From Bacteroidales bacterium (lineage in GTDB: Bacteria > Bacteroidota > Bacteroidia > Bacteroidales > JAIPAH01): 64,000 nt of DNA. Under the pieces are notes generated by a model. It worked only from the letters and a program-made list of their open reading frames with translations, was not told the origin of the DNA and ran no database searches. Positions 10,010-39,745 of the stretch are shown piece after piece. Every line of letters begins with the position of its first letter. Within the stretch, counting starts at the first letter, position 1. The stretch covers positions 2,395 through 66,394 of the forward strand of contig JAIPBX010000002.1 of NCBI GenBank assembly GCA_021738485.1, in the 5' to 3' direction. The translations under genes and the position numbers were made by a program.

Positions 10010-10867
10010 ATGAACCAACAATCATTTCAGCCCGGTGGCTGGCGTATATTACCACCGGTTATTAAAAACTTGATAATAATTAATGTAATCTTCTTTCTGG
10101 CGACCATGACTTTTGAAGGAAGCTTTAACATTAATTTAACCGACCTGTTGGGGTTACATTATTTTGCCGCTGAAAAATTTCAACCTTATCAACTCATCAC
10201 TCACATGTTCATGCATGGGGGCTTTGCCCATATTCTCTTCAATATGTTTGCCCTGTGGATGTTAGGCCGCGTGCTGGAAAATGTGTGGGGGCCCCGGAAA
10301 TTTTTGTTGTACTACATTTTTACAGGCTTAGGGGCTGCCCTGGTTCATTATGTGGTATTTTATTTTCAAATGGCCCCGACGCTGGACCTGATGAATACGT
10401 TTTTGGATGATCCATCAATGAATACCCTTAACGCCCTGGTAAGTAACCATACTTTCCAAATCAACCAGTATTCGGGTGAGATATACCAGCAGTTCCAGGA
10501 ATTCCGCCAGAGCTATCAAACCCTGAAAGGGAATCCGGAAGATTTAGCAGCCATGCAAAATGCCATTGATTTTCTGACCCGGTATAAACAATATTATCTC
10601 AATCTGCCTAACGTGATCGGGGCTTCCGGCGCTGTATTCGGTGTGCTCCTGGCTTTTGGCATGCTCTTTCCCAATGCTGTATTGTATATTTATTTTGCAT
10701 TTCCGATTAAAGCGAAATATTTTGTCATTATTCTCGGTGCCATAGAACTTTTTTCGGGTTTTGTGAATACAGGCAGTAATGTGGCCCATTTTGCCCATTT
10801 AGGTGGAATGATATTTGGATTTTTGTTATTGAAATACTGGCAGATCAATAATAAATTGTACGTTTGA
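10010..10867 (+). CDS. Rhomboid-family intramembrane serine protease
   Basis: HILFNMFALW (H-x3-N), catalytic GASGAVFGVL, and catalytic His in AHFAHLGGMIFG. Confidence 0.9.
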   Translation: MNQQSFQPGGWRILPPVIKNLIIINVIFFLATMTFEGSFNINLTDLLGLHYFAAEKFQPYQLITHMFMHGGFAHILFNMFALWMLGRVLENVWGPRKFLLYYIFTGLGAALVHYVVFYFQMAPTLDLMNTFLDDPSMNTLNALVSNHTFQINQYSGEIYQQFQEFRQSYQTLKGNPEDLAAMQNAIDFLTRYKQYYLNLPNVIGASGAVFGVLLAFGMLFPNAVLYIYFAFPIKAKYFVIILGAIELFSGFVNTGSNVAHFAHLGGMIFGFLLLKYWQINNKLYV

Positions 10868-10868
10868 T

Positions 10869-11801
10869 ATGATGCATAGTTATAACAGATCACCACTTGA
10901 TAACGCTGCGGCTTTTTTTAAGAGTAATTCGCCGCTGGCCCGGCTTATTCTTATAAATGTTATCGTATTTGTGGCGATTAACATTATTAATCTTTTCCTG
11001 TGGCTTTTCGAAATTGACGGTCAGTCAAAGATAAGTGGTATCTCAATAGTGACAGAATGGCTTTCAGTCCCCTCTGATTTAGGACAATTATTCATCCGGC
11101 CATGGACATTGGTTACCTATATGTTTCTCCAGGAAGGATTTTTTCATATTCTATTTAATATGATAATCCTGTATTTTGGTGGAAGGATTTTTACGGAATA
11201 TCTGAGCAACAAAAAGTTAGTCAAAACCTATATTTTCGGAGGTTTGATAGGAGCTGCTTTTTTCATCCTGGCATTCAATATATTTCCGGTATTTTCGGAT
11301 GCTCAGTCACGAGCCCTGGCACTGGGATCATCTGCTTCGGTGTTAGCGGTCCTTATTGCCATTGCCACTTATATTCCGAATTATTCGGTGATGCTGATTT
11401 TTCTGGGACGTGTAAAACTCAAGTACATCGCTATTTTCTTTGTCGTAATAGATGTGTTCAGTATCCAACAGGGAAATGCCGGCGGACATATAGCTCACCT
11501 GGGAGGTGCTTTTTGGGGGTTCCTCTATGCTAATAATTTAAAAAAAGGACGCGAACTGGGCACATTCTTTGACCGGATAAAATGGCCCAATTTTTCAAGA
11601 AAATCAAAATCTTCCAAAAAAAGCCATTTTGAAGATGTGTATGTAAACAGCCGGCCCATGACTGACGAAGAATACAACGCCAAAAAACGGGAACGGCAAA
11701 AACAAATAGATAAAATATTGGATAAAATCTCCCGCTCGGGTTATGAAAGCCTGACGAAGGAAGAAAAAGAGATCCTGTTCAGAAATAGCAATAATGATTA
11801 A
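10869..11801 (+). CDS. Rhomboid-family protein (paralog) with charged C-terminal extension
   Basis: HILFNMIILY, Ser motif GSSASVLAVL (G-x-S-A rather than G-x-S-G), His in AHLGGAFWGF, and a hydrophilic tail of about 90 aa. Starts 1 nt after the previous stop. Confidence 0.85.
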   Translation: MMHSYNRSPLDNAAAFFKSNSPLARLILINVIVFVAINIINLFLWLFEIDGQSKISGISIVTEWLSVPSDLGQLFIRPWTLVTYMFLQEGFFHILFNMIILYFGGRIFTEYLSNKKLVKTYIFGGLIGAAFFILAFNIFPVFSDAQSRALALGSSASVLAVLIAIATYIPNYSVMLIFLGRVKLKYIAIFFVVIDVFSIQQGNAGGHIAHLGGAFWGFLYANNLKKGRELGTFFDRIKWPNFSRKSKSSKKSHFEDVYVNSRPMTDEEYNAKKRERQKQIDKILDKISRSGYESLTKEEKEILFRNSNND

Positions 11802-12950
11802 ATGAGGGTAAGAAGGTTGTATGAGTATAAAACCGAAGGCAATAGCTTTTGGATGAAGCTTCTGTTAGCTATCAATCTTGTTACATTGATAGCCTTGTTG
11901 TTTTCTTACCTTAGCTATCATACAAGTCCGGCAGAAATATTTCTTCCGGTAATTTTTGGCATTACTTATCCAATCTGGTTTTTGTTGAATTTCCTTTTTA
12001 TCTTGCTATGGCTTTTCCTTAAAAAATGGTGGCTGGTATTCTCCCTGGTGGCCATCGTACTGGGTTGGTCTCATGTGAGTACGGTCTATCAATCGGGCGA
12101 CAAGCAGGATTCTCCTGGAGACGGCTTGCAATTGATGAGCTATAATGTACGGTTTTTCGATGTTTATAACTCGAAAAAGGATACCACCCACGATAGTCAT
12201 CATAAAATATACAGATTTCTGGAAGAGCAAAAAGCCGATATACTTTGTTTTCAGGAATTTTATAATGAAGATACCCCGGATTTTGCCGTAATGGATTCAT
12301 TATTGGCCATTCAACCAGCCAAAAACTACCATATCGACTATTTCAAGACCCGTCATAAATACTACCACTGGGGGCTGGCTACATTCTCAAAATACCCCAT
12401 TATCAACCGCCAAAGACACCAGTTTCGCAATAGCTTCGGTAATTACTTTATCTATACCGATATAGTATACGGGCGGGATACAATGCGAGTATTTAATGTG
12501 CATCTTGAATCCTGGCATTTTGAGCAGGAGGATTATCACTTTATCAGTAATTTTTCTGATTCCACACAGCAGGAACAACCCATCAAAGCAGGACTGAAAA
12601 ACATCTACTGGAAAATGCGGAGTGCTTCTATGAAAAGAGCTGTTCAGGTAAAGGAATTACAAAACATTATAACATCCTCCCCTTATCCTGTATTGGTATG
12701 TGGGGATTTTAATTCACCCCCCGTCTCCTTTGTATATAATCAGATGACTACCATCCTGCAGGATGCCTTCACCCATAAGGGAAGCCATTTCGGGACTACT
12801 TATAATGGCCTTTTGCCGGGGGCTCGTATCGATTACATTTTTTATGATGAACATTTTCACGCCGAATCGTTTAAAACTTTCAAAAAGAATTATTCAGATC
12901 ATTATCCTATTACTGTAAATTTGAGTACCCATACCGATGGTAAAGAGTAA
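11802..12950 (+). CDS. Membrane-anchored endonuclease/exonuclease/phosphatase (EEP) family protein
   Basis: N-terminal TM helices followed by EEP motifs (LMSYNVRFFD, ILCFQEF, NVHLES, VCGDFNS, IDYIF, SDHYPI). The ATG directly abuts the rhomboid stop. An internal start at 11853 is also possible. Confidence 0.8.
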   Translation: MRVRRLYEYKTEGNSFWMKLLLAINLVTLIALLFSYLSYHTSPAEIFLPVIFGITYPIWFLLNFLFILLWLFLKKWWLVFSLVAIVLGWSHVSTVYQSGDKQDSPGDGLQLMSYNVRFFDVYNSKKDTTHDSHHKIYRFLEEQKADILCFQEFYNEDTPDFAVMDSLLAIQPAKNYHIDYFKTRHKYYHWGLATFSKYPIINRQRHQFRNSFGNYFIYTDIVYGRDTMRVFNVHLESWHFEQEDYHFISNFSDSTQQEQPIKAGLKNIYWKMRSASMKRAVQVKELQNIITSSPYPVLVCGDFNSPPVSFVYNQMTTILQDAFTHKGSHFGTTYNGLLPGARIDYIFYDEHFHAESFKTFKKNYSDHYPITVNLSTHTDGKE

Positions 12951-14010
12951 TAATAAGGTGAAAGATGAAATCGTAAAGCAAGTTTTGGTCGGAGTTAATA
13001 GCTTCTTTACCCTATTGCTGTTGATTAGCTACTTGGCTTACTATGTTCCTCCTTCACCCGGATGGTTTTTCGGAATCCCGGGACTCGCTTATCCGGTCTT
13101 TTTGGTAATAAATTTCTTGTTTTTAATCGTGTGGATTATCCTCAGGAGCAAGTATCTCATTATTTCTCTTTTTGGCATTCTAATAGGCTGGAATCATGTT
13201 GAAAGACATATAAGTATAAGCTCCGACAACCCTGAATCACCCCCGGAAGGGCTGAAAATTATAAGCTATAATATACAGACCAATAAATATACTCCTCAGA
13301 AAGAACAATTAATAGAGCGAGTGGCCGACTATCTGCAGGAAAAGCAACCCCGAATTGCTTGCCTGCAGGAATGTTTTCTTTCCAGGAAACAGCTTGACGA
13401 TTTTTCGAAGAAGTCAGGATTCAAGCTGCGAGAAGCCCCCACCCCTTCCCAGGCTCATGGGTTGTATACTTTCACTGATCTCCCCGTTATCAAAACGGGG
13501 ATACTTTCCAGTAACAACGCTAAATTTGCGGTCTATCATCAGGTGACGTATAATAGCGACACGGTGAGGATATATAACACGCAGCTTGCTTCCATCAAAC
13601 TGCAAAAAGAGAAAAATCTTTTCGATCAGGAAGAAAGAGATTGGAAGTCGCAAGAATCGCAGGAGCAAATTACTAGTATGTTCAAAAAATTCAATAAAGC
13701 TTACAATCAGCGCACTAATGAAGTCAGGCTGCTGAAAAAACATATCGCCGAATGTAAATATCCGGTAATTCTCTGCGGGGATTTTAACGACACACCCTTG
13801 TCTTATACCTACCAAAACCTCAATCAACATCTCACGGATCCTTTTCCCCAGTTTGGCAGGGGATTCGGAAACACTCACAACGAAAACCTCCCTCCCATTC
13901 GTATTGACTACATCCTGCATGATGACATGTATCAAACCCAATGGTATAAAATAGATGAGGCTGAATTTTCCGACCATTTTCCTGTCAGTGCTGTGATAAC
14001 GAAAAAATAG
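12937..14010 (+). CDS. Membrane-anchored EEP family protein (paralog of the previous gene)
   Basis: Same architecture as the previous gene: TM helices, IISYNIQ, IACLQEC, LCGDFNDTP, IDYIL, SDHFPV. Overlaps the previous gene by 14 nt. Confidence 0.8.
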   Translation: MVKSNNKVKDEIVKQVLVGVNSFFTLLLLISYLAYYVPPSPGWFFGIPGLAYPVFLVINFLFLIVWIILRSKYLIISLFGILIGWNHVERHISISSDNPESPPEGLKIISYNIQTNKYTPQKEQLIERVADYLQEKQPRIACLQECFLSRKQLDDFSKKSGFKLREAPTPSQAHGLYTFTDLPVIKTGILSSNNAKFAVYHQVTYNSDTVRIYNTQLASIKLQKEKNLFDQEERDWKSQESQEQITSMFKKFNKAYNQRTNEVRLLKKHIAECKYPVILCGDFNDTPLSYTYQNLNQHLTDPFPQFGRGFGNTHNENLPPIRIDYILHDDMYQTQWYKIDEAEFSDHFPVSAVITKK

Positions 14011-16264: not shown

Positions 16265-16633
16265 ATGAAAAAGAAGATACTAGTTATTGATGATGAAAAA
16301 ACTATTCGTATTCTTTTGAAAAACTACCTTCAAAAAGATTATGAAGTAATCACCAAAGAAAACGGCGAGGAGGGAATGGCATGGCTACAGCAGGGAATCA
16401 TCCCCGATTTAATTGTTGTTGATATCCAGATGCCCGTTATGGACGGATATGAGTTTATAAAAAATATCCGGGCCAGTGGTTATTTCAAGGATATCCCTTT
16501 GATTATGCTTTCCGGTATCGAAAGCAGTTCAGATAAAGTCAAAGCATTGAAGATGGGAGCCAATGACTACATGGTTAAACCCTTTAACCCGGAAGAATTA
16601 GCTGTGAGAATTCAGTTACATCTGGCACGATAG
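16265..16633 (+). CDS. Stand-alone response-regulator receiver (CheY-like, no output domain)
   Basis: 122 aa. Has VIDDE acidic pocket, phospho-acceptor in LIVVDIQMPVMDG, LSG (T/S position) and MVKPF (conserved Lys). Confidence 0.9.
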   Translation: MKKKILVIDDEKTIRILLKNYLQKDYEVITKENGEEGMAWLQQGIIPDLIVVDIQMPVMDGYEFIKNIRASGYFKDIPLIMLSGIESSSDKVKALKMGANDYMVKPFNPEELAVRIQLHLAR

Positions 16634-16667: not shown

Positions 16668-17855
16668 ATGCAGGACTCAAACGGCAACCAAAAAAAATTT
16701 CATATAATATATATTGGAGGGGATATTAAAACAATTAACCCTTTCAAAGAGAGCTCGTTATTTGAAATAACCGTCAAAGAAAACAGTTTATCGGCTATCA
16801 ATTTTTTGTCCCGGGATGAAAAAATCGATGCCATATTGTGTGAGATGCATATTCCGGGAATCAATGGCATAGAAATATATAAACTTCTCCAATCCAAAAA
16901 AATACATCCTCAAACTCCCTTTATTCTGATAACGCATTCCTTTGATCCGAAAACTATACAGGAAGCACTCCAGCATAAAATAGACGACGTTTACCCCACC
17001 CCCCTGGATTTGGAAAAAATATACCAGCGGATTCAATTCCTGAAACACTATAAAAAAGAATATGAAATAGCTATACGCCCCAAACATGATCCACAGGAGT
17101 ACAAAATGCCGTTTTTTAAACGAGCTTTTGATATCCTTTTTGCCTTGATTATCATCCTCATTCTCTCCCCTATTTTTCTGCTGACCGCAATAGCTATCAA
17201 ACTTGAATCGAGCGGCCCACTCGTTTATACCTCAAAACGGGTTGGAACAGGCTATCATGTATTTGATTTTTATAAATTCCGCTCCATGTTTACGGGGGCC
17301 GATCAAAAACTAAAAGACCTTAAACATTTAAATCAATATTCGGCCGACGAAAATGGCAACAGTAATGAACTGGACACGGATTGTCCCGAATGTAAACGTT
17401 TAGGGAAACCCTGTTCACCGATACTTTTCATAGAAGGAAAAGAAATATGCGAGAATCAATACTTGCGTCAGAAAAAAGAGAATCCTCAATCCGCTTTTGT
17501 AAAAATTAAGGATGATCCGCGGATCACCAAAGTAGGGGCATTTATTAGAAAGACAAGTATTGATGAGTTACCCCAGCTTTTCAATGTGTTGAAAGGTGAT
17601 ATGTCTATCGTAGGCAACCGCCCGCTGCCTTTGTATGAAGCCGAGCTGCTGACCTCGGATGGATGGAGTGAACGGTTTCTCGGACCGGCTGGGATTACAG
17701 GACTGTGGCAGGTGTATAAGCGCGGACGTAGTGAAATGTCGGATGAAGAAAGAAAAGCACTGGATAACCAGTATGCAAGAAATAACTCATTTTGGTTAGA
17801 TTTGAAAATTATTCTGAGGACAATTCCGGCTTTGTTTCAGAAAGAAAAAGTTTGA
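16668..17855 (+). CDS. Priming polyprenyl-phosphate sugar-phosphate transferase (bacterial sugar transferase, WbaP/EpsB-like C-terminal domain) fused to an N-terminal degenerate receiver domain
   Basis: The C-terminal half has a TM helix, YKFRSM, DDPRITKVGAFIRKTSIDELPQLFNVLKGDMSIVGNRP. The N-terminal ~125 aa has a receiver fold pattern but with ILCEMHIPGINGIE (Glu where the phospho-Asp sits) and YPTP in place of the K-P motif. Confidence 0.85.
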   Translation: MQDSNGNQKKFHIIYIGGDIKTINPFKESSLFEITVKENSLSAINFLSRDEKIDAILCEMHIPGINGIEIYKLLQSKKIHPQTPFILITHSFDPKTIQEALQHKIDDVYPTPLDLEKIYQRIQFLKHYKKEYEIAIRPKHDPQEYKMPFFKRAFDILFALIIILILSPIFLLTAIAIKLESSGPLVYTSKRVGTGYHVFDFYKFRSMFTGADQKLKDLKHLNQYSADENGNSNELDTDCPECKRLGKPCSPILFIEGKEICENQYLRQKKENPQSAFVKIKDDPRITKVGAFIRKTSIDELPQLFNVLKGDMSIVGNRPLPLYEAELLTSDGWSERFLGPAGITGLWQVYKRGRSEMSDEERKALDNQYARNNSFWLDLKIILRTIPALFQKEKV

Positions 17856-32136: not shown

Positions 32137-33327
32137 ATGGAGACACTTGCGATTATTTTCTGGGTTCTTTTGCTATTGGTCTTCTATAGCTATCTGGGCT
32201 ATGCTCTTGTTTTGTTTATCCTGGTGCGTCTGAAGCGCATGCTGAAAACACAAAAATCTTCCTATAGGGATATAGAATATGAACCCGAGGTAACCCTGTT
32301 TGTGGCTGCCTATAATGAGAAAGACTACCTCGACCGAAAAGTGAAGAATGGCTTTGAGCTGAATTATCCGAATGAAAAAATCAGGCAGGTGTGGGTGACC
32401 GACGGTTCTGACGATGGCACACCGGAGCTTCTAAGGCAATATGATGGCGTAGAAGTATACCACAAGGATGAGCGTGCCGGGAAAATTGCTGCCATGAACC
32501 GGGGTATGCAGTTTGTGGAAAGCCCGATTGTTATTTTTTCGGATGGAAATACTATTCTTGGAAAGGATTCGATAAGGGAAATTGTGAATTTGTTTAAAAA
32601 TCCCAAAGTGGGCTGTGTATCGGGTGAGAAACGTATTTTCACCAAGGAAGCCGATGGGGCTAGCAGTGCCGGAGAAGGAATTTACTGGAAATACGAATCC
32701 ACGCTAAAGAAATGGGATTTTGAACTTTATTCGGTGGTAGGTGCCGCCGGTGAACTGTTTGCGATACGGCGGGAACTGTTCGAAGAAGTGGAGCGTGATA
32801 CCCTGCTGGATGATTTTATTATATCTCTGCGGGTAGCCCAAAAGGGTTATCGTATTGGATATAACCCCAACGCCTATGCCATTGAAAGTGCTTCGGCCAA
32901 TGTCAGGGAAGAACTGAAACGGAAAGTGCGGATTGCAGCAGGCGGGTTTCAGTCGATCGTTAGACTGAAATCTCTGTTAAATCCATTGAAATACAAAACG
33001 CTAACCTTTCAGTATATTAGCCATCGCGTCTTGCGCTGGACGGTGGCTCCTTTTTCGCTGCCTGTGATTTTTATTCTGAATGGTATCCTGGCCTGGCACC
33101 AGGGGTTTTTTACCCTGCAGCTTTATCCGGTGCTGTTTGGATTGCAAATACTCTTCTACCTGGCAGCTTTAGTGGGATGGTTCCTGGAGGAGAAGCAGCT
33201 ACGGATAAAGGTGCTTTTTGTGCCCTATTATTTTTTAATTATGAATTATTCTGTTTATCTTGGTTTTTTACGATATCTAAAAGGAGGTCAAACGGTAAAA
33301 TGGGAAAGAGCCATACGAGGACAATAA
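32137..33327 (+). CDS. Membrane-embedded GT2 glycosyltransferase (synthase-like, degenerate QxxRW)
   Basis: N-terminal TM, VAAYNEKD, TDGSDDGT, FSDGNT (D-x-D-like), VVGAAGELF, KRKVRIAAGG in place of QxxRW, and C-terminal TM helices. Confidence 0.75.
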   Translation: METLAIIFWVLLLLVFYSYLGYALVLFILVRLKRMLKTQKSSYRDIEYEPEVTLFVAAYNEKDYLDRKVKNGFELNYPNEKIRQVWVTDGSDDGTPELLRQYDGVEVYHKDERAGKIAAMNRGMQFVESPIVIFSDGNTILGKDSIREIVNLFKNPKVGCVSGEKRIFTKEADGASSAGEGIYWKYESTLKKWDFELYSVVGAAGELFAIRRELFEEVERDTLLDDFIISLRVAQKGYRIGYNPNAYAIESASANVREELKRKVRIAAGGFQSIVRLKSLLNPLKYKTLTFQYISHRVLRWTVAPFSLPVIFILNGILAWHQGFFTLQLYPVLFGLQILFYLAALVGWFLEEKQLRIKVLFVPYYFLIMNYSVYLGFLRYLKGGQTVKWERAIRGQ

Positions 33328-34964
33328 CTTTTGTGATAGTTTTAGGTATGATGCTGCTAACCGGACTGGAAAGCCTGGGGCAGTGCGACATCACAATTCC
33401 TTCTGAAACGAATTTGGTTGACGGAAATGATTATGACTTTCAACCCGGGGATGTGATATGCCTGGAAGGTGGAGAAAAACCTTACCTGCTGCTCCGGAAT
33501 ATTGATCCTGAAGGGAACTTTAATCAGCCTGTGACATTTCGTAATCACAACGGGGAAGTGACTTTCGATACGGACCATTACTATGGCATCTCCATTTCGA
33601 ATTGTAACAATATCGTGCTGAGTGGTAATGGAGACGATGATTATACGTATGGAATAAAAATTTTAAGGGTGGCTAACGGAACAGGATTAAGTATAGGCGA
33701 TCTTAGTTCTAAGGTTGAAGTGCGGGGGATTGAAATCAGTAACACCAACTATGCCGGGTTGATATCCAAAACGGACCCGTTCTGCGAAAACGGACAGATC
33801 AAAGGAACACGGGAGGATTTTATCCAGGAGGATATTATTATCCATGATAATTATATCCATCATACCGGTACGGAAGGCATGTACATAGGGAGCTCAAAAT
33901 ATTTGCAGGGTTTTGATGTGGAATGTAATGGCGATACGCAGCATGTACTTCCCCATGTCAACTCGGGAGTGCAAGTGTATGACAATCGCGTTGAATATAC
34001 GGGTTGGGACGGAATACAGGTTTCCTCAGCGGTGGATAATTGTGATATTTATGGGAATGATATTGACCATGACAGCGAAGAGGCCGCTTATAATCAAATG
34101 AGCGGTATGCTCATCGGAACGGCCAGTGTATGTGATTGCTACAACAATAAAATCATCGACGGAAAAGGCGATGGAATGGATATTCTGGGTGCAGGAAATC
34201 AAAAAATCTACAATAATCTGATTGTCAACGCTGGTCAAAGATATGACGGAAGTGGCAATGATAACAAACATGGCATTTATTCCGCTCACCTTTATACTTT
34301 TGACGGGGCCTACATGTATTACTATAATAATACGATTATCAATCCCCGCACCTATGGGATTAGCCATCGAAACGATCAACTGGAGAGCAGCAGGGCATAT
34401 AATAATGTCGTTATCGATCCGGGAGCGTACGAGGATGAAGGGGATGAGGCTTATATTCATCTCTCTTCCGAATCCATTCCGATGGATATGAAAAACAATT
34501 ATTTTGGTCAGAACGTTAATACGGCAGGTTTTGACCAGCCGGAAAATAATAATTTCGACCTACAAGTGAATTCCTCGTTGGTTAATGCCGGACGATCAAT
34601 AGGCGGGATAAATTTTGATATTGAGAACCGAACCCGCCCTCATGCAGGAGGGATGGATATCGGGGCCTATGAATGTCATAAACCGGGCGTGGGAATAGAA
34701 GAATACGACAACAACAGCCAAGTGAAGGTGTTTCCCAACCCGGCGAGAACAAAATTGGCGATTGAAGTTTATTTGCCCCGACCTTCAGATTGTTCTTTGA
34801 CGATCTTTAATGTGATGGGCCAAACCGTATTTTCATCTACCATGCGACAGAAAAAAACAAAACATAAGTGGATGATTCCAGTACCCCAATGGGTTTCAGG
34901 CTCTTACTTTTATCAATTGGAATCATTGAATAAACAGTGGAGAGGAAAATTTTTTAAACATTAA
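33300..34964 (+). CDS. Secreted right-handed parallel beta-helix protein with T9SS C-terminal sorting domain (possible polysaccharide lyase, hydrolase or epimerase)
   Basis: I chose the start at MGKSHTRTITFVIVLGMMLLTG (33300). It has repeated N-x-I/V-x-G/N beta-helix rungs (ISISNCNNIVLSGN, IHDNYIHHTG, VYDNRVEYTG, IYGNDIDH, CYNNKIIDG, IYNNLIVNAG, YYNNTIINP, AYNNVVIDP). The C-terminus VKVFPNPARTKLAIEV...YFYQL is T9SS-like. Confidence 0.7.
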   Translation: MGKSHTRTITFVIVLGMMLLTGLESLGQCDITIPSETNLVDGNDYDFQPGDVICLEGGEKPYLLLRNIDPEGNFNQPVTFRNHNGEVTFDTDHYYGISISNCNNIVLSGNGDDDYTYGIKILRVANGTGLSIGDLSSKVEVRGIEISNTNYAGLISKTDPFCENGQIKGTREDFIQEDIIIHDNYIHHTGTEGMYIGSSKYLQGFDVECNGDTQHVLPHVNSGVQVYDNRVEYTGWDGIQVSSAVDNCDIYGNDIDHDSEEAAYNQMSGMLIGTASVCDCYNNKIIDGKGDGMDILGAGNQKIYNNLIVNAGQRYDGSGNDNKHGIYSAHLYTFDGAYMYYYNNTIINPRTYGISHRNDQLESSRAYNNVVIDPGAYEDEGDEAYIHLSSESIPMDMKNNYFGQNVNTAGFDQPENNNFDLQVNSSLVNAGRSIGGINFDIENRTRPHAGGMDIGAYECHKPGVGIEEYDNNSQVKVFPNPARTKLAIEVYLPRPSDCSLTIFNVMGQTVFSSTMRQKKTKHKWMIPVPQWVSGSYFYQLESLNKQWRGKFFKH

Positions 34965-35791: not shown

Positions 35792-38521
35792 ATGAAGTAT
35801 CGGTGGTTAATTGGTTATCTGCTTACTGCTCTTTTGCTTCTATGTGCCGGTATTATGGCGCGGGGTGCTGCCCTGCCTGATACCGGGACGGACAGTGCAA
35901 TAATGCAGGGGCTCCTGATTCCGGAGGATAACAGAAGTACGCTGTATAATCAACTATCGGTAACACATACAGGTGTTGAGCCTGACAGTGTCGGAAAACA
36001 AGGGGGTAAGGCCTCTCATAAAGCTTTCCGATGGATAGAATCGGGGAATTATTTTTTGCACAGGGGAATGGCGGATTCGGCAGTAACCTTGTATTTGAAA
36101 GCTAAAAATGTGTTTGAGAAGCAGAGTCACGGTCAGGGATTGATGCATAGCTTTAACAACCTGGGAGTTACCTATCATAAATATCAAGCCAGTGACATCG
36201 CTTTAAATCAATTAAAGCAAGCACTTGTCTTGAGTCGAAAGGCTGCCGTGCCTGCTCATGAAAAAGCCACGGTTTTCGCTAACCTGGCCACGGTTCACCA
36301 TTCGAAGAATCAGTCCCGGATAGCTTTTCAATATGTGGATTCGGCCACGCAGGTGATGAGCGGAAACCATACACCTGAAAGGAGGGCTACGGTGTATGCA
36401 AATCTGGCTATGTTTTTTACGTCCGTGGAACGTTTTGACAAGGCCCTGATCTATTTGCAAAAAGCCGGAGATTTGTTGGACCAAAAGGAAAACGGGCGGA
36501 TGAAAGCTTTTGTCTGGAATGATTTGGCCGCTGTGTACCGAAACATCTACAACTATGACAAAGCTTTAAATTACTACCAGAGAGCTTTTGACATTCAAAA
36601 ATCCATAGGAGATACAATTCGAATGGCTTTCCTAAACAACAGTATCGGACAAATCCAGCTTGAACGAAAAGCTTACGAAGAAGCCGGCAAACACTTTTCC
36701 AGGGCTGTGCTCTTAAATAGTAAACTTAGCGATGAGAAGGGAGTGCTGGAAAATATTCAATCCCTCTCCTCCACTCTTTTGAAACAAGGTAAACCTCTAA
36801 AGGCCAGAGATACTTTACACGCGTATCTTCCCCGTGCAGAAGCTTTGGGCGATTACGCCCTGCTCAGCGATTTTCACAGGCTGTTGGGTTTATCTTATAG
36901 CCTGAATAATCAGTATGCGCGGGCGCTGGAACATCAATCGCTTACAAAGACTTATACTGATTCGCTACATGATAAACAGCAGGATTTCCGTACTGAGTTT
37001 TTCACAACCCGGGGAAAGCTCAAACAACGCTGGCACTCCCTGCGCGTTAATAATTTACAGGAGCATCTTGAAAGGCAGGAAGCAGACCGCAGGGTTTCTT
37101 ATCCGGCAATAGGCGGAATAGCTCTTCTGGGAGGAATATTGGTATTTTGGTTGGTTGTTCGGAACAAAAGAATGAAAAAAGGTTTTCAGCAGCAACTCCA
37201 GGAAAAAAATCGGAAAATTAAGGAAACGCAAAAGCAACTGGAGGAATCGTCCACGGATATTGAAGCCAAGGTAAATGAAAGAACGAAAGAGCTTCAGAGA
37301 GAGATGGAGAAGTATAAGAAGAAGGACGTGGACCTGAAAAAGGCACTGAAGGATGCCGAGGAGGCCAATTATCTTAAAAATGCTTTTCTGTCGAATATGA
37401 GTCATGAAATACGGACTCCCCTTAATGGTATTATTGGTTTTTCAAGCCTCCTTGAGACGGAACTGTCGCTCATGGAAAATAAAGAGCTTTATGAATATGC
37501 CCAGGGCATACAAACTTCCGGCGAGCGGTTGCTACATCTGCTTAATAATATCATTGATATCAGCCGTATTGAGGCCAATGATTTGCAGGTTTCACTCCAG
37601 GAGACCAACATTCAGCAAATTATCGAAAAAAGCGCGGATTTGTTTAAGTTTAAGGCCAATGAAAAAGGGCTGAAATTCAATATGAAGCTGGAAGAAACGC
37701 CCATGGTATATGCCGATCCGACAAGTTTATCCAAAGTGGTATCAGATATTATTGATAATGCCGTAAAATATACTGAAAAAGGATTTGTGAATATAACCAG
37801 CGGATATGTTTCTGACAAGATGGAAGTATTTGTCAAAATCCGCGATACAGGGGTGGGGATAGATGAAAATTATCTGCCCCGAGTATTTGAGGCTTTTCGC
37901 CAGGAAAGCCTTGGCTATTCAAGGGCCTACCAGGGAGCAGGTTTGGGCTTGCCTCTTGCCAAAAGGCTCCTGGAACTTATGAATGGGCGGATTGAGCTTA
38001 ATTCTAAAAAAGACCAGGGAACGAATGTGATTATCTATATTCCGACAAAGGAAAAAGCCAGGGATAAGGGCTCTCAGCAACAGCATCCTTCTTCCGGGAA
38101 GAAGCCGGCCCCTGAGCTCATAAAACCGATGAATGAAATCACTATTCTGTTGGTGGAGGATGACCGTATGAACCGGCTGGTGATCAATAAAATGCTGGAG
38201 AATGACTGGAACGTGGTGGCTACAGAAGACGGTGATCAGACACTGGAAGAGGTCGGTAAAGCTCATAAAAAGGGACAGATTTTTGATTTGATGCTCTTTG
38301 ATATCAACTTGCCCAGCCCCTGGGATGGTATACAACTCATGCATCACCTGCGTAAAAAGTACCCCGAATACAAAGAGGTGCCTTTCATTGCCCAGACGGC
38401 ATACGCGATGCGTACGGACAGAAGGCGGCTTTTGGAAGAGGGTTTTGATGAATATATATCCAAGCCAATCAACCAACAGCGTCTTCTGACGATGATTTAT
38501 AATTTTTTAAGCCGGAAATAA
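35792..38521 (+). CDS. Hybrid sensor histidine kinase: signal peptide, TPR-repeat sensor region, one TM, coiled coil, HisKA, HATPase_c, receiver
   Basis: H-box NMSHEIRTPLNGIIGF, N-box VVSDIIDNAVKYT, DTGVGI, GAGLGLPLA. The receiver has LLVEDDRMN, LMLFDINLP and YISKP. Confidence 0.9.
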   Translation: MKYRWLIGYLLTALLLLCAGIMARGAALPDTGTDSAIMQGLLIPEDNRSTLYNQLSVTHTGVEPDSVGKQGGKASHKAFRWIESGNYFLHRGMADSAVTLYLKAKNVFEKQSHGQGLMHSFNNLGVTYHKYQASDIALNQLKQALVLSRKAAVPAHEKATVFANLATVHHSKNQSRIAFQYVDSATQVMSGNHTPERRATVYANLAMFFTSVERFDKALIYLQKAGDLLDQKENGRMKAFVWNDLAAVYRNIYNYDKALNYYQRAFDIQKSIGDTIRMAFLNNSIGQIQLERKAYEEAGKHFSRAVLLNSKLSDEKGVLENIQSLSSTLLKQGKPLKARDTLHAYLPRAEALGDYALLSDFHRLLGLSYSLNNQYARALEHQSLTKTYTDSLHDKQQDFRTEFFTTRGKLKQRWHSLRVNNLQEHLERQEADRRVSYPAIGGIALLGGILVFWLVVRNKRMKKGFQQQLQEKNRKIKETQKQLEESSTDIEAKVNERTKELQREMEKYKKKDVDLKKALKDAEEANYLKNAFLSNMSHEIRTPLNGIIGFSSLLETELSLMENKELYEYAQGIQTSGERLLHLLNNIIDISRIEANDLQVSLQETNIQQIIEKSADLFKFKANEKGLKFNMKLEETPMVYADPTSLSKVVSDIIDNAVKYTEKGFVNITSGYVSDKMEVFVKIRDTGVGIDENYLPRVFEAFRQESLGYSRAYQGAGLGLPLAKRLLELMNGRIELNSKKDQGTNVIIYIPTKEKARDKGSQQQHPSSGKKPAPELIKPMNEITILLVEDDRMNRLVINKMLENDWNVVATEDGDQTLEEVGKAHKKGQIFDLMLFDINLPSPWDGIQLMHHLRKKYPEYKEVPFIAQTAYAMRTDRRRLLEEGFDEYISKPINQQRLLTMIYNFLSRK

Positions 38522-38530
38522 GAGCACCTT

Positions 38531-39745
38531 ATGGGAGAACAAAAGTCGGATAGCCCGGAAAAAAGTCTTAAACAGAAAGAACAGGAAATTGCTGAGCTGG
38601 AAAAACATTTTCTCAGCGAGAAAAACAAGCTTTACCATAGCAATAAAATGGTGTTGCACAACCTTAGTTATGACTTGCGTATACCTATTAATGGTATCAT
38701 TAGCATGCTGGAGATGTTTGATACCAGCACCCTTACGCGTCAACAAAAAGATCAGCTTCGGGCTATCAAGTCTTCTGTAAAGAATTTGTCGCAAACTGTG
38801 GAAGATATGATGACGTTTTCGGCGTTGCTGAGCGATAGAGTGGAAATGAAAGAGGAGGCGTTTGACTTGCCGGCTTTTGTGGAGGAGTTAAAAAATCAGT
38901 TTGAACTTACTGCCAGCGGCAAAAATATTGGATGGAAAATCAGTCGCGAAGATGAGATGCCGCAGCAAGTGATCGGGGATAAGTATCATCTCAGGCAAAT
39001 CCTGGTGAATCTTTTGAGCAATGCCTTCAAAAATACCATCGAAGGAGAGGTGGTGCTTCATTGGCAAAAGCTGAACCAATCCGGGAAAAATATGCAGATA
39101 CGATGGAGTGTTTCGGATACGGGCACAGGCATGAGTCCGGAAAAACAGGAAAATATTCGCCAACATCTGCATCAAACCAAAGATCCGAGTTTTATTATTT
39201 CAGAAGAAGTGGGCCTTGGGCTGGCCCTGGTATACTATCTGTCGCAAAAACTGAATGGTTCGTTCAATTTTGAAAGCGATCCGGCTTCGGGAAGTCGCTT
39301 TTATGTCGATCTCCCTTTGAAAAAGCCAGAAGAAACAACCACTATCGAAAAGCATCCATACCATACGGCAAGCCCTAAACGCATTTTATTGGTGGAGGAT
39401 AACTACCTGAATCAGAAATTTGCTTCCGCAGCACTTCAAAAGGCGGGTCATAAACTGGATATTGCGGAGAATGGGAAAGTTGCCTATCAGAAATACCAAC
39501 AAAACGATTATCACCTGATTCTTATGGATATTGAGTTACCCCTGACCGACGGGATACAGGTCACCAAATCTATTCGCAGAGAAGAAAAGAAATACCATTA
39601 CCACTATACACCCATTATAGCGGTAACAGCCTATGCTATCGAGCATGACCGCACCAAATGCCTTAATGCGGGCATGGATGAGTATCTCACCAAACCGTTC
39701 AGACCGGAAGAGTTATTAGACCTTATAGAACGTATGGTTTCCTGA
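38531..39745 (+). CDS. Soluble hybrid histidine-kinase-like protein with degenerate H-box (Tyr at the phospho-His position) plus a canonical receiver
   Basis: The H-box region is VLHNLSYDLRIPINGIISM, with a TAT codon at 38669-38671 where His is expected. N-box ILVNLLSNAFKNT, DTGTGM and GLGLAL are intact. The receiver has LLVEDNYLN, LILMDIELP and YLTKPF. Confidence 0.8.
   Translation: MGEQKSDSPEKSLKQKEQEIAELEKHFLSEKNKLYHSNKMVLHNLSYDLRIPINGIISMLEMFDTSTLTRQQKDQLRAIKSSVKNLSQTVEDMMTFSALLSDRVEMKEEAFDLPAFVEELKNQFELTASGKNIGWKISREDEMPQQVIGDKYHLRQILVNLLSNAFKNTIEGEVVLHWQKLNQSGKNMQIRWSVSDTGTGMSPEKQENIRQHLHQTKDPSFIISEEVGLGLALVYYLSQKLNGSFNFESDPASGSRFYVDLPLKKPEETTTIEKHPYHTASPKRILLVEDNYLNQKFASAALQKAGHKLDIAENGKVAYQKYQQNDYHLILMDIELPLTDGIQVTKSIRREEKKYHYHYTPIIAVTAYAIEHDRTKCLNAGMDEYLTKPFRPEELLDLIERMVS

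What the first reader, a model, noticed from the sequence alone, without database searches (positions are those of the whole stretch)
16668..17855. Priming sugar transferase fused to a pseudo-receiver with Glu at the phospho-acceptor site and a Cys-rich insertion
The N-terminal ~125 aa follows the receiver (beta-alpha)5 pattern. The acceptor Asp is Glu (ILCEMHIPGING, GAG codon at 16842-16844), the acidic pair is reduced to GGD, and the conserved Lys-Pro is Thr-Pro (YPTP). Glu at this position is a classical phosphomimetic substitution. The domain may therefore be a locked-state module or a docking site for the adjacent genuine receiver or the kinases. In addition, the catalytic domain has an insertion between KFRSM and DPRIT that looks about 45 aa longer than I expect for this family. 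The insertion contains CPEC-x6-C-x12-C, a possible metal site.
Basis: seen in the sequence. Interest (0 to 1): 0.7.

Follow-up and report, generated by a model that had tools for sequence, protein, structure and literature searches.

The report
Pseudo-receiver sugar-priming enzyme with partner regulator
This gene encodes the enzyme that starts synthesis of a surface polysaccharide, fused to a signalling domain that can no longer be phosphorylated and always encoded next to a small intact signalling protein, so it probably shows how many Bacteroidota switch polysaccharide production on and off at the first step.

Summary
ORF 16668-17855 (395 aa) is an N-terminal receiver-fold domain joined to a small monotopic phosphoglycosyl transferase (PGT). 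Glu59 (GAG, 16842-16844) aligns with CheY Asp57, Gly-Gly replaces the acidic pair, and Thr111 replaces the conserved Lys. The catalytic domain has a 45-aa insert relative to WbaP (about 62 aa relative to PglC) containing CxxC-x6-C-x11-C (x11, not x12).

This is a family trait. Among 120 close homologues, Glu59 is kept in 118 and each Cys in 118. Across Bacteroidota the acceptor residue varies (E, D, N and others), Lys is mostly lost, and the best-conserved non-core receiver residues are Gly17, Asp107 and Arg121. Asp107 and Arg121 match the PhoB D101/R115 salt bridge of the α4-β5-α5 dimer face.

A canonical single-domain response regulator lies directly upstream in 52 of 52 full-length loci. 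It is absent from 0 of 3 receiver-less paralogue loci and 0 of 22 loci from other phyla, and from both canonical-receiver relatives whose context could be read.

The insert lies in the region equivalent to the PglC mobile loop that closes over the UDP-sugar. Its cysteines are all-or-none (4 or 0), which suggests a structural metal site.

Best explanation: the pseudo-receiver docks the phosphorylated partner regulator and so gates the first step of polysaccharide synthesis. The interaction is inferred, not shown. I rate it a new variant of known kinds.

The parts
16265..16633 (+). Stand-alone single-domain response regulator (122 aa), canonical (D9 D10, D53, S83, K105-P106), PhoB-like alpha4-beta5-alpha5 face (D101, R115). 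Proposed phosphorylatable partner of the pseudo-receiver.
   Evidence: Pfam Response_reg 101 bits. Collinear with PhoB over residues 1-119. Canonical in 45 of 47 orthologous loci. Directly upstream of the PGT in 52 of 52 loci. 863 homologue clusters; all 120 listed are receiver-only proteins of 122-157 aa, mostly 123.
16668..17855 (+). Whole gene: pseudo-receiver fused to a small monotopic phosphoglycosyl transferase (395 aa plus stop).
16698..17075 (+). Pseudo-receiver domain (residues 11-136), (beta-alpha)5 fold with a long alpha5 helix (115-136). G17-G18 replace the acidic pair, E59 (16842-16844) sits at the acceptor site, T89 is retained, and T111 (16998-17000) replaces Lys. D107 (16986-16988) and R121 (17028-17030) are conserved on the beta5/alpha5 face.
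17112..17210 (+). Predicted re-entrant membrane helix of the PGT (residues 149-181) with the K151-R152 start and the S167-P168 break.
   Evidence: AF2 helix 149-181. K151, R152, D155 and P168 are invariant. Aligned with the WbaP and PglC N-terminal helix.
17280..17528 (+). Region equivalent to the PglC 'mobile loop' (PglC 61-81), here 83 residues (205-287), bracketed by M207 (KFRSM) and R285 (DPR).
   Evidence: alignment. PMC12550135 for the role of the loop, Met63 and Arg79.
17343..17492 (+). Insert relative to WbaP (residues 226-275): a disordered acidic linker, the Cys4 unit, and a helix.
   Evidence: No Pfam or PDB sequence match.
17382..17450 (+). Cys4 unit C239-x2-C242-x6-C249-x11-C261 (short helix 240-245, hairpin 252-255/258-261), followed by the invariant E262. 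Candidate structural metal (Zn) site.
   Evidence: Each Cys in 118 of 120. All-or-none pattern: 61 representatives with 4 Cys, 47 with 0, 6 with 1-3. pLDDT about 79-85.
17562..17567 (+). Catalytic Asp-Glu dyad D299-E300 (PglC D93-E94).
   Evidence: Invariant. Aligned. Active-site residues listed in PMC9262359.
17610..17624 (+). Clade signature V315-G-N317-R-P319 (VGNRP) in place of the usual VGPRP.
   Evidence: N317 invariant. VGNRP in 146 of 151 representatives. WbaP has VGPRP.
18089..21747 (+). Conserved downstream partners: a 247-aa OEP-like protein and a 971-aa Wzz/GNVR-type protein with two LysM domains. Wzx-like, Wzy, eight glycosyltransferases, an acetyltransferase, a T9SS beta-helix protein and a methyltransferase follow, up to 35787.
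35792..39745 (+). Two hybrid histidine kinases closing the locus (TPR-HisKA-HATPase-REC, and HisKA-HATPase-REC). Candidate phosphodonors for the stand-alone RR.
   Evidence: Kinases are also near the gene pair in many other loci.

Best explanation
The protein is the initiating enzyme of a Wzx/Wzy-type exopolysaccharide locus. It is a small monotopic PGT with an intact catalytic core. Its N-terminal receiver domain has lost the phosphotransfer chemistry: Glu replaces the acceptor Asp, and there is no metal-binding acidic pair and no Lys. That domain probably works as a docking and dimerisation module. The canonical single-domain response regulator encoded directly upstream (16265-16633) is phosphorylated by the locus kinases, directly or through a relay. 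In its phosphorylated form it binds the pseudo-receiver, most plausibly as a receiver:pseudo-receiver heterodimer through the alpha4-beta5-alpha5 faces. This changes PGT activity and so gates the first committed step of polysaccharide synthesis. The 45-aa insert is a separate feature of this PGT clade. It enlarges the mobile loop that closes over the UDP-sugar into a small lid module, stapled in most members by a four-Cys (probably Zn) site. Shown here: folds, residue identities, conservation, synteny and co-occurrence. Inferred: which kinase acts, the physical RR-pseudo-receiver contact and its surface, the direction of regulation, and metal binding.
For: Receiver fold with a non-catalytic active site. 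The trait is fixed in the clade. The catalytic core is intact: K151/R152, S167-P168, K203, D299-E300 and R318 are invariant. The context is a complete polysaccharide locus with kinases. A receiver-only ORF lies directly upstream on the same strand in 52 of 52 full-length receiver-PGT loci spanning six Bacteroidota orders, overlapping or within 20 nt in 37 of them. It is canonical in 45 of 47. The reciprocal check holds: RR homologues are followed by the PGT. Controls: 0 of 3 receiver-less paralogue loci and 0 of 22 loci from other phyla have it. Distribution is complementary: relatives with a fully canonical fused receiver (P0219, P0215) lack the separate RR, while degenerate ones (P0178, P0171) have it. 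Across 144 diverse representatives the only conserved non-core receiver residues are G17, D107 (D/E 90%) and R121 (K/R 78%). D107 and R121 align with RR D101 and R115, invariant in all 147 rows, and these equal PhoB D101 and R115, the charge pair of the alpha4-beta5-alpha5 dimer shown by compensatory mutation (PMC4511772). Precedents: phosphorylated single-domain EpsW binds and activates the PGT EpsZ (PMC12802240), and pseudo-receiver:receiver heterodimers such as WhiI/BldM (PMC12632262). For the insert: it lies between M207 and R285, equivalent to the PglC mobile loop 61-81, and its cysteines are all-or-none.
Against: No direct evidence of contact. A paired test of the predicted cross salt bridges showed no covariation, and the Flavobacteriales partner RRs carry Leu or Val at position 115 while the PGT keeps D107. 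D107 and R121 would equally serve homodimerisation of the pseudo-receiver. The complementary-distribution argument rests on only two canonical-receiver loci. No Hpt protein was found in the window, although both kinases are hybrid. Small monoPGTs are reported to act as monomers (PMC12802240 discussion), so the EpsZ dimer-promotion mechanism may not transfer. Operon adjacency alone does not prove a physical interaction.
Confidence: 0.55

Rival explanations
1. Locked-on module. Glu59 mimics phospho-Asp, so the pseudo-receiver sits permanently in an active-like conformation and drives constitutive homodimerisation or activation of the PGT through its own alpha4-beta5-alpha5 face. The upstream RR acts elsewhere, for example on the Wzz/LysM protein, or as a phosphate sink for the hybrid kinases.
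For: Glu is 118 of 120 in the clade. It is the commonest replacement at the acceptor site of pseudo-receivers and can partly activate receivers (PMC12632262). T89 is retained. D107 and R121 are conserved and would equally fit a homodimer. Some relatives combine Glu with an intact Lys-Pro and a partial acidic site (P0125, P0139, P0166), as expected for a recent Asp-to-Glu 'locking' step.
Against: Across the family the position is not constrained to Glu (E 54, D 48, N 12, others 30). The Lys thought to help Glu mimic the phosphoryl group is absent here. The idea does not explain the 52 of 52 adjacency of a canonical RR or its absence where the fused receiver is canonical. The review notes that the phosphomimetic idea has been disproved for some pseudo-receivers.
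Confidence: 0.2
2. Decayed remnant. The receiver domain is an evolutionary relic that now serves only as a folding, stability or membrane-positioning scaffold with no signalling role. Regulation by the RR and kinases is transcriptional or acts on other proteins, and the adjacency reflects inherited operon structure.
For: Active-site residues have drifted in many directions across lineages. The Pfam score is low (44 bits). No covariation with the partner was detected.
Against: The domain has been retained at full length with a confident fold in all the orders sampled. Specific surface residues D107 and R121 are conserved while the active site drifts. The partner RR has no DNA-binding domain, so a transcriptional route is not obvious. 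Receiver-less paralogues exist, showing that the catalytic domain does not need the domain to fold.
Confidence: 0.12
3. The Cys4 unit is a sensor, not a structural staple. It would be a redox-sensitive zinc or iron-sulfur site that tunes lid closure, and hence polysaccharide initiation, to oxidative or metal status; or it is a docking knob for the next glycosyltransferase.
For: Four conserved Cys lie in the loop that controls access to the UDP-sugar site. Cys-free variants keep the hairpin, so the metal site is an add-on and not essential to the fold.
Against: The motif occurs in aerobes (Flavobacterium, Winogradskyella) as well as in likely anaerobes (Bacteroidales MAGs). The CxxC + C + C spacing with a short hairpin is typical of small structural Zn sites (my own knowledge). 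There is no sequence match to any known Fe-S or redox module.
Confidence: 0.1

Closest known systems
EpsW / EpsZ of Myxococcus xanthus (single-domain response regulator activating the initiating PGT; PMC12802240)
   Same: A phosphorylatable single-domain response regulator is paired with the initiating monotopic PGT of a Wzx/Wzy exopolysaccharide pathway, and control is post-translational at the first committed step. NCBIfam also scores the window's RR against the EpsW model at 73 bits, below that model's cut-off of 200.
   Different: EpsZ is a large monoPGT with a transmembrane bundle and a cytoplasmic DUF that EpsW is modelled to bind, promoting dimerisation. Here the enzyme is a small monoPGT whose N-terminus is itself a receiver-fold domain, so the proposed contact is receiver-to-pseudo-receiver. 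The phosphodonor there is a chemosensory kinase (DifE); here it would be hybrid histidine kinases.
Small monotopic PGTs (PglC of Campylobacter; PDB 8G1N, 8E37, 5W7L)
   Same: The catalytic fold matches (Foldseek TM 0.74-0.77). So do the re-entrant helix with its Ser-Pro break, the KFRxM motif, the Asp-Glu dyad, and a mobile loop bracketed by Met and Arg.
   Different: An N-terminal receiver-fold domain of about 140 aa; a mobile loop of 83 residues rather than 21, carrying a Cys4 unit; VGNRP in place of VGPRP; best family scores to hexose-1-P transferases (EPS_sugtrans, WcaJ, WbaP) and not to diNAcBac enzymes.
Receiver-domain fusions of small monoPGTs noted in the O'Toole, Imperiali and Allen 2021 network analysis (cited in PMC12802240; the paper itself is not held)
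   Same: The same domain architecture class (receiver plus Bac_transf).
   Different: As far as I could read (only the citing sentence), that work lists the fusion as a regulatory-domain architecture. I found no description of the pseudo-receiver nature, the obligatory partner RR or the Cys4 loop insert. I could not check the original paper.
Bacterial pseudo-receivers / aspartate-less receivers (Bourret et al. 2025, PMC12632262; Maule et al. 2015, PMC4395418), e.g. WhiI/BldM, CmrT/CmrR, plant PRRs
   Same: A receiver fold lacking the phosphotransfer residues, with Glu at the 'D' position (the commonest replacement). It is encoded in an operon with a canonical receiver, and a receiver:pseudo-receiver heterodimer is a recognised hypothesis.
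   Different: Most studied cases are transcription factors. Here the output is a membrane enzyme, and the partner is a single-domain receiver conserved across a whole phylum.
OmpR/PhoB-family receiver dimers (PhoB D101-R115 across alpha4-beta5-alpha5)
   Same: The stand-alone RR is collinear with the PhoB receiver and keeps D101 and R115. The pseudo-receiver keeps the aligned D107 and R121.
   Different: Neither protein has a DNA-binding domain. Heterodimerisation is inferred only, and the Flavobacteriales partner RRs lack R115.

Membership tests
Response regulator receiver domain (PF00072), catalytically competent | (beta-alpha)5 flavodoxin-like fold | tested here: met
   Pfam 44.3 bits against a cut-off of 30.2; AF2 secondary structure; Foldseek TM up to 0.84 to receivers.
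Response regulator receiver domain (PF00072), catalytically competent | Phospho-acceptor Asp at the end of beta3 | tested here: not met
   Glu59 aligns with CheY D57 and Spo0F D54. Glu in 118 of 120 homologues.
Response regulator receiver domain (PF00072), catalytically competent | Acidic pair after beta1 (metal binding) | tested here: not met
   G17-G18 occupy these positions. G17 is invariant in the clade, and D19 follows in only 70 of 120.
Response regulator receiver domain (PF00072), catalytically competent | Conserved Lys (followed by cis-Pro) after beta5 | tested here: not met
   T111-P112. The position is T, I, V or G in the clade, and Lys in only 25 of 144 representatives.
Response regulator receiver domain (PF00072), catalytically competent | Thr/Ser at the end of beta4 | tested here: met
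   T89; S or T in 82 of 120.
Pseudo-receiver (PsR) / aspartate-less receiver | Recognised computationally as a receiver but lacking key phosphotransfer residues | tested here: met
   The rows above; definition from PMC12632262.
Pseudo-receiver (PsR) / aspartate-less receiver | Not phosphorylated by kinases or small phosphodonors | not testable with these tools
   Needs phosphotransfer or Phos-tag assays.
Small monotopic phosphoglycosyl transferase (Bac_transf PF02397, PglC-like) | Bac_transf catalytic domain and fold | tested here: met
   201 bits; PglC TM 0.74-0.77; WbaP and PglC sequence hits at 1e-38 to 1e-30.
Small monotopic phosphoglycosyl transferase (Bac_transf PF02397, PglC-like) | Catalytic Asp-Glu dyad and Lys/Arg phosphate ligands (PglC K59, D93, E94, R112) | tested here: met
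   K203, D299, E300 and R318 are invariant and aligned. The residue list comes from PMC9262359.
Small monotopic phosphoglycosyl transferase (Bac_transf PF02397, PglC-like) | Single re-entrant membrane helix with a Ser-Pro break; no transmembrane bundle or DUF as in large monoPGTs | tested here: met
   Helix 149-181 with S167-P168 (P168 invariant). The N-terminal 140 aa are a soluble receiver fold. The membrane topology itself was not measured.
Small monotopic phosphoglycosyl transferase (Bac_transf PF02397, PglC-like) | Transfer of a sugar-1-phosphate from an NDP-sugar to undecaprenyl phosphate; identity of the sugar | not testable with these tools
   Best NCBIfam models are EPS_sugtrans, WcaJ and WbaP, all below their cut-offs. 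The substrate is unknown.
EpsW/EpsZ-type regulation (RR~P activates the initiating PGT) | Single-domain canonical RR genetically linked to the PGT | tested here: met
   52 of 52 loci; canonical residues in 45 of 47.
EpsW/EpsZ-type regulation (RR~P activates the initiating PGT) | Target is a large monoPGT whose cytoplasmic DUF lacks the beta-hairpin | tested here: not met
   The enzyme is a small monoPGT with a receiver-fold N-terminus.
EpsW/EpsZ-type regulation (RR~P activates the initiating PGT) | Direct, phosphorylation-enhanced RR-PGT interaction that raises activity | not testable with these tools
Classical zinc ribbon / zinc finger modules | Two CxxC knuckles, or a match to a known Zn-module family | tested here: not met
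   The motif is CxxC + C + C. No Pfam or PDB sequence match for the insert. Metal binding itself was not tested.

The most novel reading that the evidence does not exclude
Bacteroidota widely use a split two-receiver switch. A phosphorylated single-domain regulator heterodimerises with a phosphorylation-dead receiver that is built into the priming enzyme, and this contact controls closure of an enlarged, zinc-stapled lid over the UDP-sugar site. It would be the first defined mechanism by which a bacterial pseudo-receiver is regulated and regulates an enzyme, and a second, structurally different solution to RR control of polysaccharide initiation after EpsW/EpsZ.
Probability: 0.3. Interest if true: 0.78.

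Novelty: new variant of a known kind. Interest (0 to 1): 0.6.

Why it matters
Two recent lines of work meet here. The first is the 2025 finding that a single-domain response regulator can switch on a polysaccharide pathway by binding its initiating PGT. The second is the open question, stated in a 2025 survey, of how bacterial pseudo-receivers are activated and inactivated. This gene pair offers a compact, phylum-wide system, also present in cultured genera such as Flavobacterium, Pedobacter, Mucilaginibacter and Chitinophaga, in which both questions become testable with ordinary binding and enzyme assays. It also flags an undescribed, probably metal-stapled elaboration of the PGT mobile loop that may bear on substrate choice. 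On the practical side, the partner regulator is widely mis-annotated as a transcription factor.

Tried and rejected
1. Linked-chain AlphaFold prediction of RR + linker + PGT. MAFFT mis-placed the pseudo-receiver of the homologues onto the RR part, and the tools refuse any concatenated sequence, so this was abandoned.

2. Paired covariation of the predicted cross salt bridges (PGT R121 with RR D101; PGT D107 with RR R115) in 47 gene pairs. It was inconclusive, because both pairs are mostly conserved and the Flavobacteriales RRs have L or V at position 115.

3. Search for a natural RR-receiver-PGT triple fusion among the longer family members. None was found: P0262 is an acyltransferase fusion and the others are start-site or insert variants.

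4. Search for an Hpt protein in the window, using phmmer with the Hpt of L085. None was found, but this is a weak method.

5. Sequence match of the insert to Pfam or PDB. Nothing meaningful came back: a chance 0.07 hit to an uncharacterised protein and Sec66 at 0.03.

6. Reading the O'Toole 2021 PNAS paper and its companion review. Neither is held, so prior description of the fusion rests on one citing sentence.

7. I considered and rejected the idea that Glu59 is a sequencing error. It is present in 118 of 120 independent homologues.

8. I considered and rejected the idea that the insert is linked to the receiver fusion. Receiver-less paralogues carry it.

9. The Prevotella intermedia paper on 'additional loops' in PGTs could not be tied to this family.
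Full report
**1. What is in the sequence**

- Pfam finds a weak but significant Response_reg match at residues 29-123 (44.3 bits, cut-off 30.2). It also finds a strong Bac_transf match at 151-390 (201 bits), in which 240 residues are spread over 178 profile positions.
- By sequence, the nearest solved structures are the monotopic phosphoglycosyl transferases WbaP and PglC for the C-terminal part, and PorX and other receivers for the N-terminal part.
- An AlphaFold2 model built on 120 homologues (mean pLDDT 77.7) gives a textbook (beta-alpha)5 domain for residues 11-136: strands 11-16, 32-37, 55-59, 85-89 and 107-110, with a long alpha5 helix at 115-136.
- The model continues with a low-confidence linker, a long helix at 149-181, and the catalytic domain.
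- Foldseek matches PglC with TM 0.74-0.77 and many stand-alone receivers with TM up to 0.84.

**2. The receiver active site**

I aligned the domain with CheY, Spo0F and the window's three genuine receivers.
- Glu59 falls on CheY Asp57 and Spo0F Asp54.
- Thr111-Pro112 falls on Lys109-Pro110.
- Gly17-Gly18 falls on the acidic pair.
- The Thr/Ser position is kept (Thr89).

The codon at 16842-16844 is GAG.

**3. The insert**

A construct lacking residues 226-275 aligns end to end with WbaP, which is only five residues longer at that point. The insert is therefore 45 aa relative to WbaP, exactly as estimated, and about 62 aa relative to PglC.
- The cysteine motif is C239-x2-C242-x6-C249-x11-C261, so x11 and not x12.
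- In the model the unit is a short helix (240-245) plus a hairpin (252-255/258-261) at pLDDT about 79-85. A disordered acidic linker precedes it and a helix (262-271) follows it.
- The insert lies between Met207 of KFRSM and Arg285 of DPR. In C. concisus PglC, the segment between the equivalent Met63 and Arg79 (residues 61-81) is the substrate-specific mobile loop that closes over the UDP-sugar (PMC12550135).
- The insert is thus an enlargement of that lid, from 21 to 83 residues.
- It has no Pfam or PDB sequence match.

**4. A family trait**

The 120 best database homologues (55-88% identity, mostly Bacteroidales MAGs) all have the same architecture.
- Glu59 is present in 118 of 120, with Asp in the other 2.
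- Each of the four Cys is present in 118 of 120.
- Gly17, Asp107, Arg121 and Asn317 are invariant.

A scan of reference genomes shows the family across Bacteroidota: Bacteroidales, Flavobacteriales, Sphingobacteriales, Cytophagales, Chitinophagales and Saprospiraceae. A profile search of 1.8 billion representatives returned 150 diverse members, essentially all with the signature VGNRP in place of the usual VGPRP.

At this depth the picture changes in three ways.
- **Acceptor site.** The acceptor column reads E 54, D 48, N 12 and others 30, and the Lys column is Lys in only 25 of 144. Three members (P0210, P0215, P0219) still have fully canonical receivers scoring 75-92 bits. The family therefore descends from a genuine response-regulator-PGT fusion whose active site has decayed along several routes. 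Glu is the state fixed in the window's clade.
- **Insert.** It comes in three forms: Cys4, an acidic Cys-free form that keeps the hairpin (Prevotella, Draconibacterium), and absent (Pedobacter, Saprospiraceae, Chitinophaga). Among representatives with a long insert the cysteine count is bimodal: 61 have four, 47 have none, and only 6 have one to three. That all-or-none pattern fits a tetra-coordinate metal site, and the location is cytoplasmic. Metal binding itself is not shown.
- **Receiver-less paralogues.** Proteins of about 268 aa (L023, L029, L031) keep VGNRP and the Cys4 insert. The insert therefore belongs to the catalytic-domain clade and not to the signalling fusion.

**5. Context and the partner regulator**

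The gene opens a complete Wzx/Wzy-type polysaccharide locus. In order it contains:
- an OEP-like protein;
- a Wzz/GNVR protein with two LysM domains;
- a Wzx-like protein and Wzy;
- eight glycosyltransferases and an acetyltransferase;
- a T9SS-sorted beta-helix protein and a methyltransferase;
- two hybrid histidine kinases.

Directly upstream (16265-16633, a 34-nt gap) lies a canonical 122-aa single-domain response regulator (101 bits). It has DD, D53, S83 and K105-P106, and it is collinear with the PhoB receiver over residues 1-119.

Evidence that this pairing is conserved and specific:
- In 52 of 52 full-length receiver-PGT loci from the genome scan, a receiver-only ORF lies directly upstream on the same strand. 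In 37 of them it overlaps the PGT gene or ends within 20 nt of it.
- It has the canonical residues in 45 of 47 evaluable cases.
- From the other side, RR homologues picked from other lineages are followed by the PGT, a protein of 250-300 aa and the LysM protein.
- Controls are clean: 0 of 3 receiver-less paralogue loci and 0 of 22 PGT loci from other phyla have an adjacent receiver.
- The two relatives with a canonical fused receiver whose context could be read (P0219, P0215) lack the separate RR. The two degenerate ones looked up (P0178, P0171) have it, and P0178 also has an Hpt gene. This complementary pattern is suggestive, but it rests on very few canonical cases.

**6. Which surface is conserved**

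Across 144 diverse representatives, the receiver domain's conserved positions are hydrophobic core residues plus three others:
- Gly17 (78%);
- Asp107 (74%; D/E 90%);
- Arg121 (70%; K/R 78%).

When RR homologues, PGT homologues and a linked query were aligned together, the only two invariant columns in 147 rows were RR Asp101 and Arg115, which coincide with PGT Asp107 and Arg121. By collinearity these are PhoB Asp101 and Arg115. The R115D defect in PhoB is partly rescued by D101R, which marks them as the intermolecular charge pair of the alpha4-beta5-alpha5 dimer (PMC4511772).

The pseudo-receiver has thus lost its phosphochemistry but kept the hallmark residues of the receiver dimer face, and so has its partner.

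**7. Most likely mechanism**

I propose the following, with steps marked as inferred where they are.
- The fused domain is a docking module.
- The upstream RR is phosphorylated by the locus kinases, possibly through a relay (inferred).
- RR~P binds the pseudo-receiver, most simply as a heterodimer through alpha4-beta5-alpha5 (inferred).
- Binding alters PGT activity, perhaps through the long alpha5 helix leading to the membrane helix, or through the enlarged lid (inferred).

There are two precedents. Phosphorylated EpsW binds and activates the large monoPGT EpsZ in Myxococcus; the authors of that study themselves note that receiver fusions of small monoPGTs might be regulated differently (PMC12802240). 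Receiver:pseudo-receiver heterodimers such as WhiI/BldM are the second, discussed as an open class of mechanism (PMC12632262).

**8. Weaknesses**

- There is no direct evidence for the contact.
- A paired test of the predicted salt bridges showed no covariation, and the Flavobacteriales partner RRs lack Arg115.
- Asp107 and Arg121 would serve a pseudo-receiver homodimer equally well.
- Both kinases are hybrid, and I found no Hpt in the window.

**9. Rival explanations**

- *A Glu-locked, constitutively active homodimerising module.* Glu is the commonest pseudo-receiver substitution and can partly mimic phospho-Asp. However, the position is not constrained across the family, the cooperating Lys is missing, and the rival leaves the universal partner RR unexplained.
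- *A decayed scaffold without a signalling role.* The conserved surface pair and the existence of receiver-less paralogues argue against it.
- *The Cys4 site as a redox, metal or protein-docking sensor, as opposed to a structural staple.* This remains possible.

**10. Comparison and novelty**

- The catalytic domain is a member of the small monoPGT family; all sequence-level defining features are met. It carries a clade-specific VGNRP signature and an enlarged lid.
- The N-terminal domain is a member of the receiver fold but fails three of the four catalytic-residue tests, which places it among the pseudo-receivers.
- The system works like EpsW/EpsZ but is not a member of that arrangement, because the target is not a large monoPGT.
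- Receiver-PGT fusions were listed in a 2021 network analysis that I could not read.
- In the held literature I found no description of the pseudo-receiver state, the obligatory partner regulator or the Cys4 lid.

I rate the finding a new variant of known kinds, of moderate to good interest. It gives a simple, widespread and culturable test bed for how a bacterial pseudo-receiver is controlled, and for a second mode of response-regulator control over polysaccharide initiation.

Noticed in passing
window 18832-21747 (+): A 971-aa polysaccharide co-polymerase-like protein (Wzz N-terminus, GNVR) carries two LysM peptidoglycan-binding domains. It is conserved just downstream of the PGT in most Bacteroidota loci. 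The C-terminal 250 aa or so have no Pfam match.
   Followed up: partly
window 18089-18832 (+): A 247-aa 'half-size' OEP/TolC-like protein always sits between the PGT and the LysM/Wzz protein. It may be the outer-membrane export component of this locus type.
   Followed up: partly
window 33177-34964 (+): A right-handed beta-helix protein with a T9SS C-terminal sorting domain lies inside the polysaccharide locus and may be a secreted glycanase or lyase. The listed ORF overlaps the preceding GT2 gene (32137-33327) by 150 nt, so the true start is probably further downstream.
   Followed up: no
window 35792-38521 and 38531-39745 (+): Two adjacent hybrid histidine kinases close the locus. The first has TPR repeats; the second has no sensor domain. 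No Hpt protein was detected in the window, whereas a related locus (L085 3162-3512) has an Hpt gene next to the stand-alone RR.
   Followed up: partly
window 16265-16633 (+) and homologues P0272-P0390: The stand-alone receiver family (863 clusters, mostly 123 aa) is often annotated in public records as 'response regulator transcription factor' or 'OmpR family DNA-binding regulator', although it has no DNA-binding domain. This is probably because its receiver resembles PhoB.
   Followed up: yes
window 17610-17624 (+); representatives P0121-P0270: VGNRP (N317) replaces the VGPRP motif of WbaP and PglC in 146 of 151 representatives of this clade. The consequence for catalysis or substrate is unknown.
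   Followed up: partly
L023 9962-10771, L029 9944-10783, L031 9989-10795: Receiver-less paralogues of about 268 aa carry the same Cys4 lid and VGNRP, sit outside polysaccharide loci, and have no adjacent receiver.
   Followed up: yes
P0262 (615 aa): A member of the same PGT clade is fused to an N-terminal Acyl_transf_3 membrane acyltransferase in place of a receiver.
   Followed up: no
window 10010-14010 (+): Two tandem rhomboid-family genes (10010-10867, 10869-11801) are followed by two tandem membrane-anchored Exo_endo_phos family genes (11802-12950, 12937-14010), upstream of uvrB.
   Followed up: no
L001 9622-9921 and 7253-7531: In the closest reference-genome locus the upstream receiver appears as fragments (56 and 117 bits). 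This may be a frameshift, a pseudogene or an assembly error.
   Followed up: no
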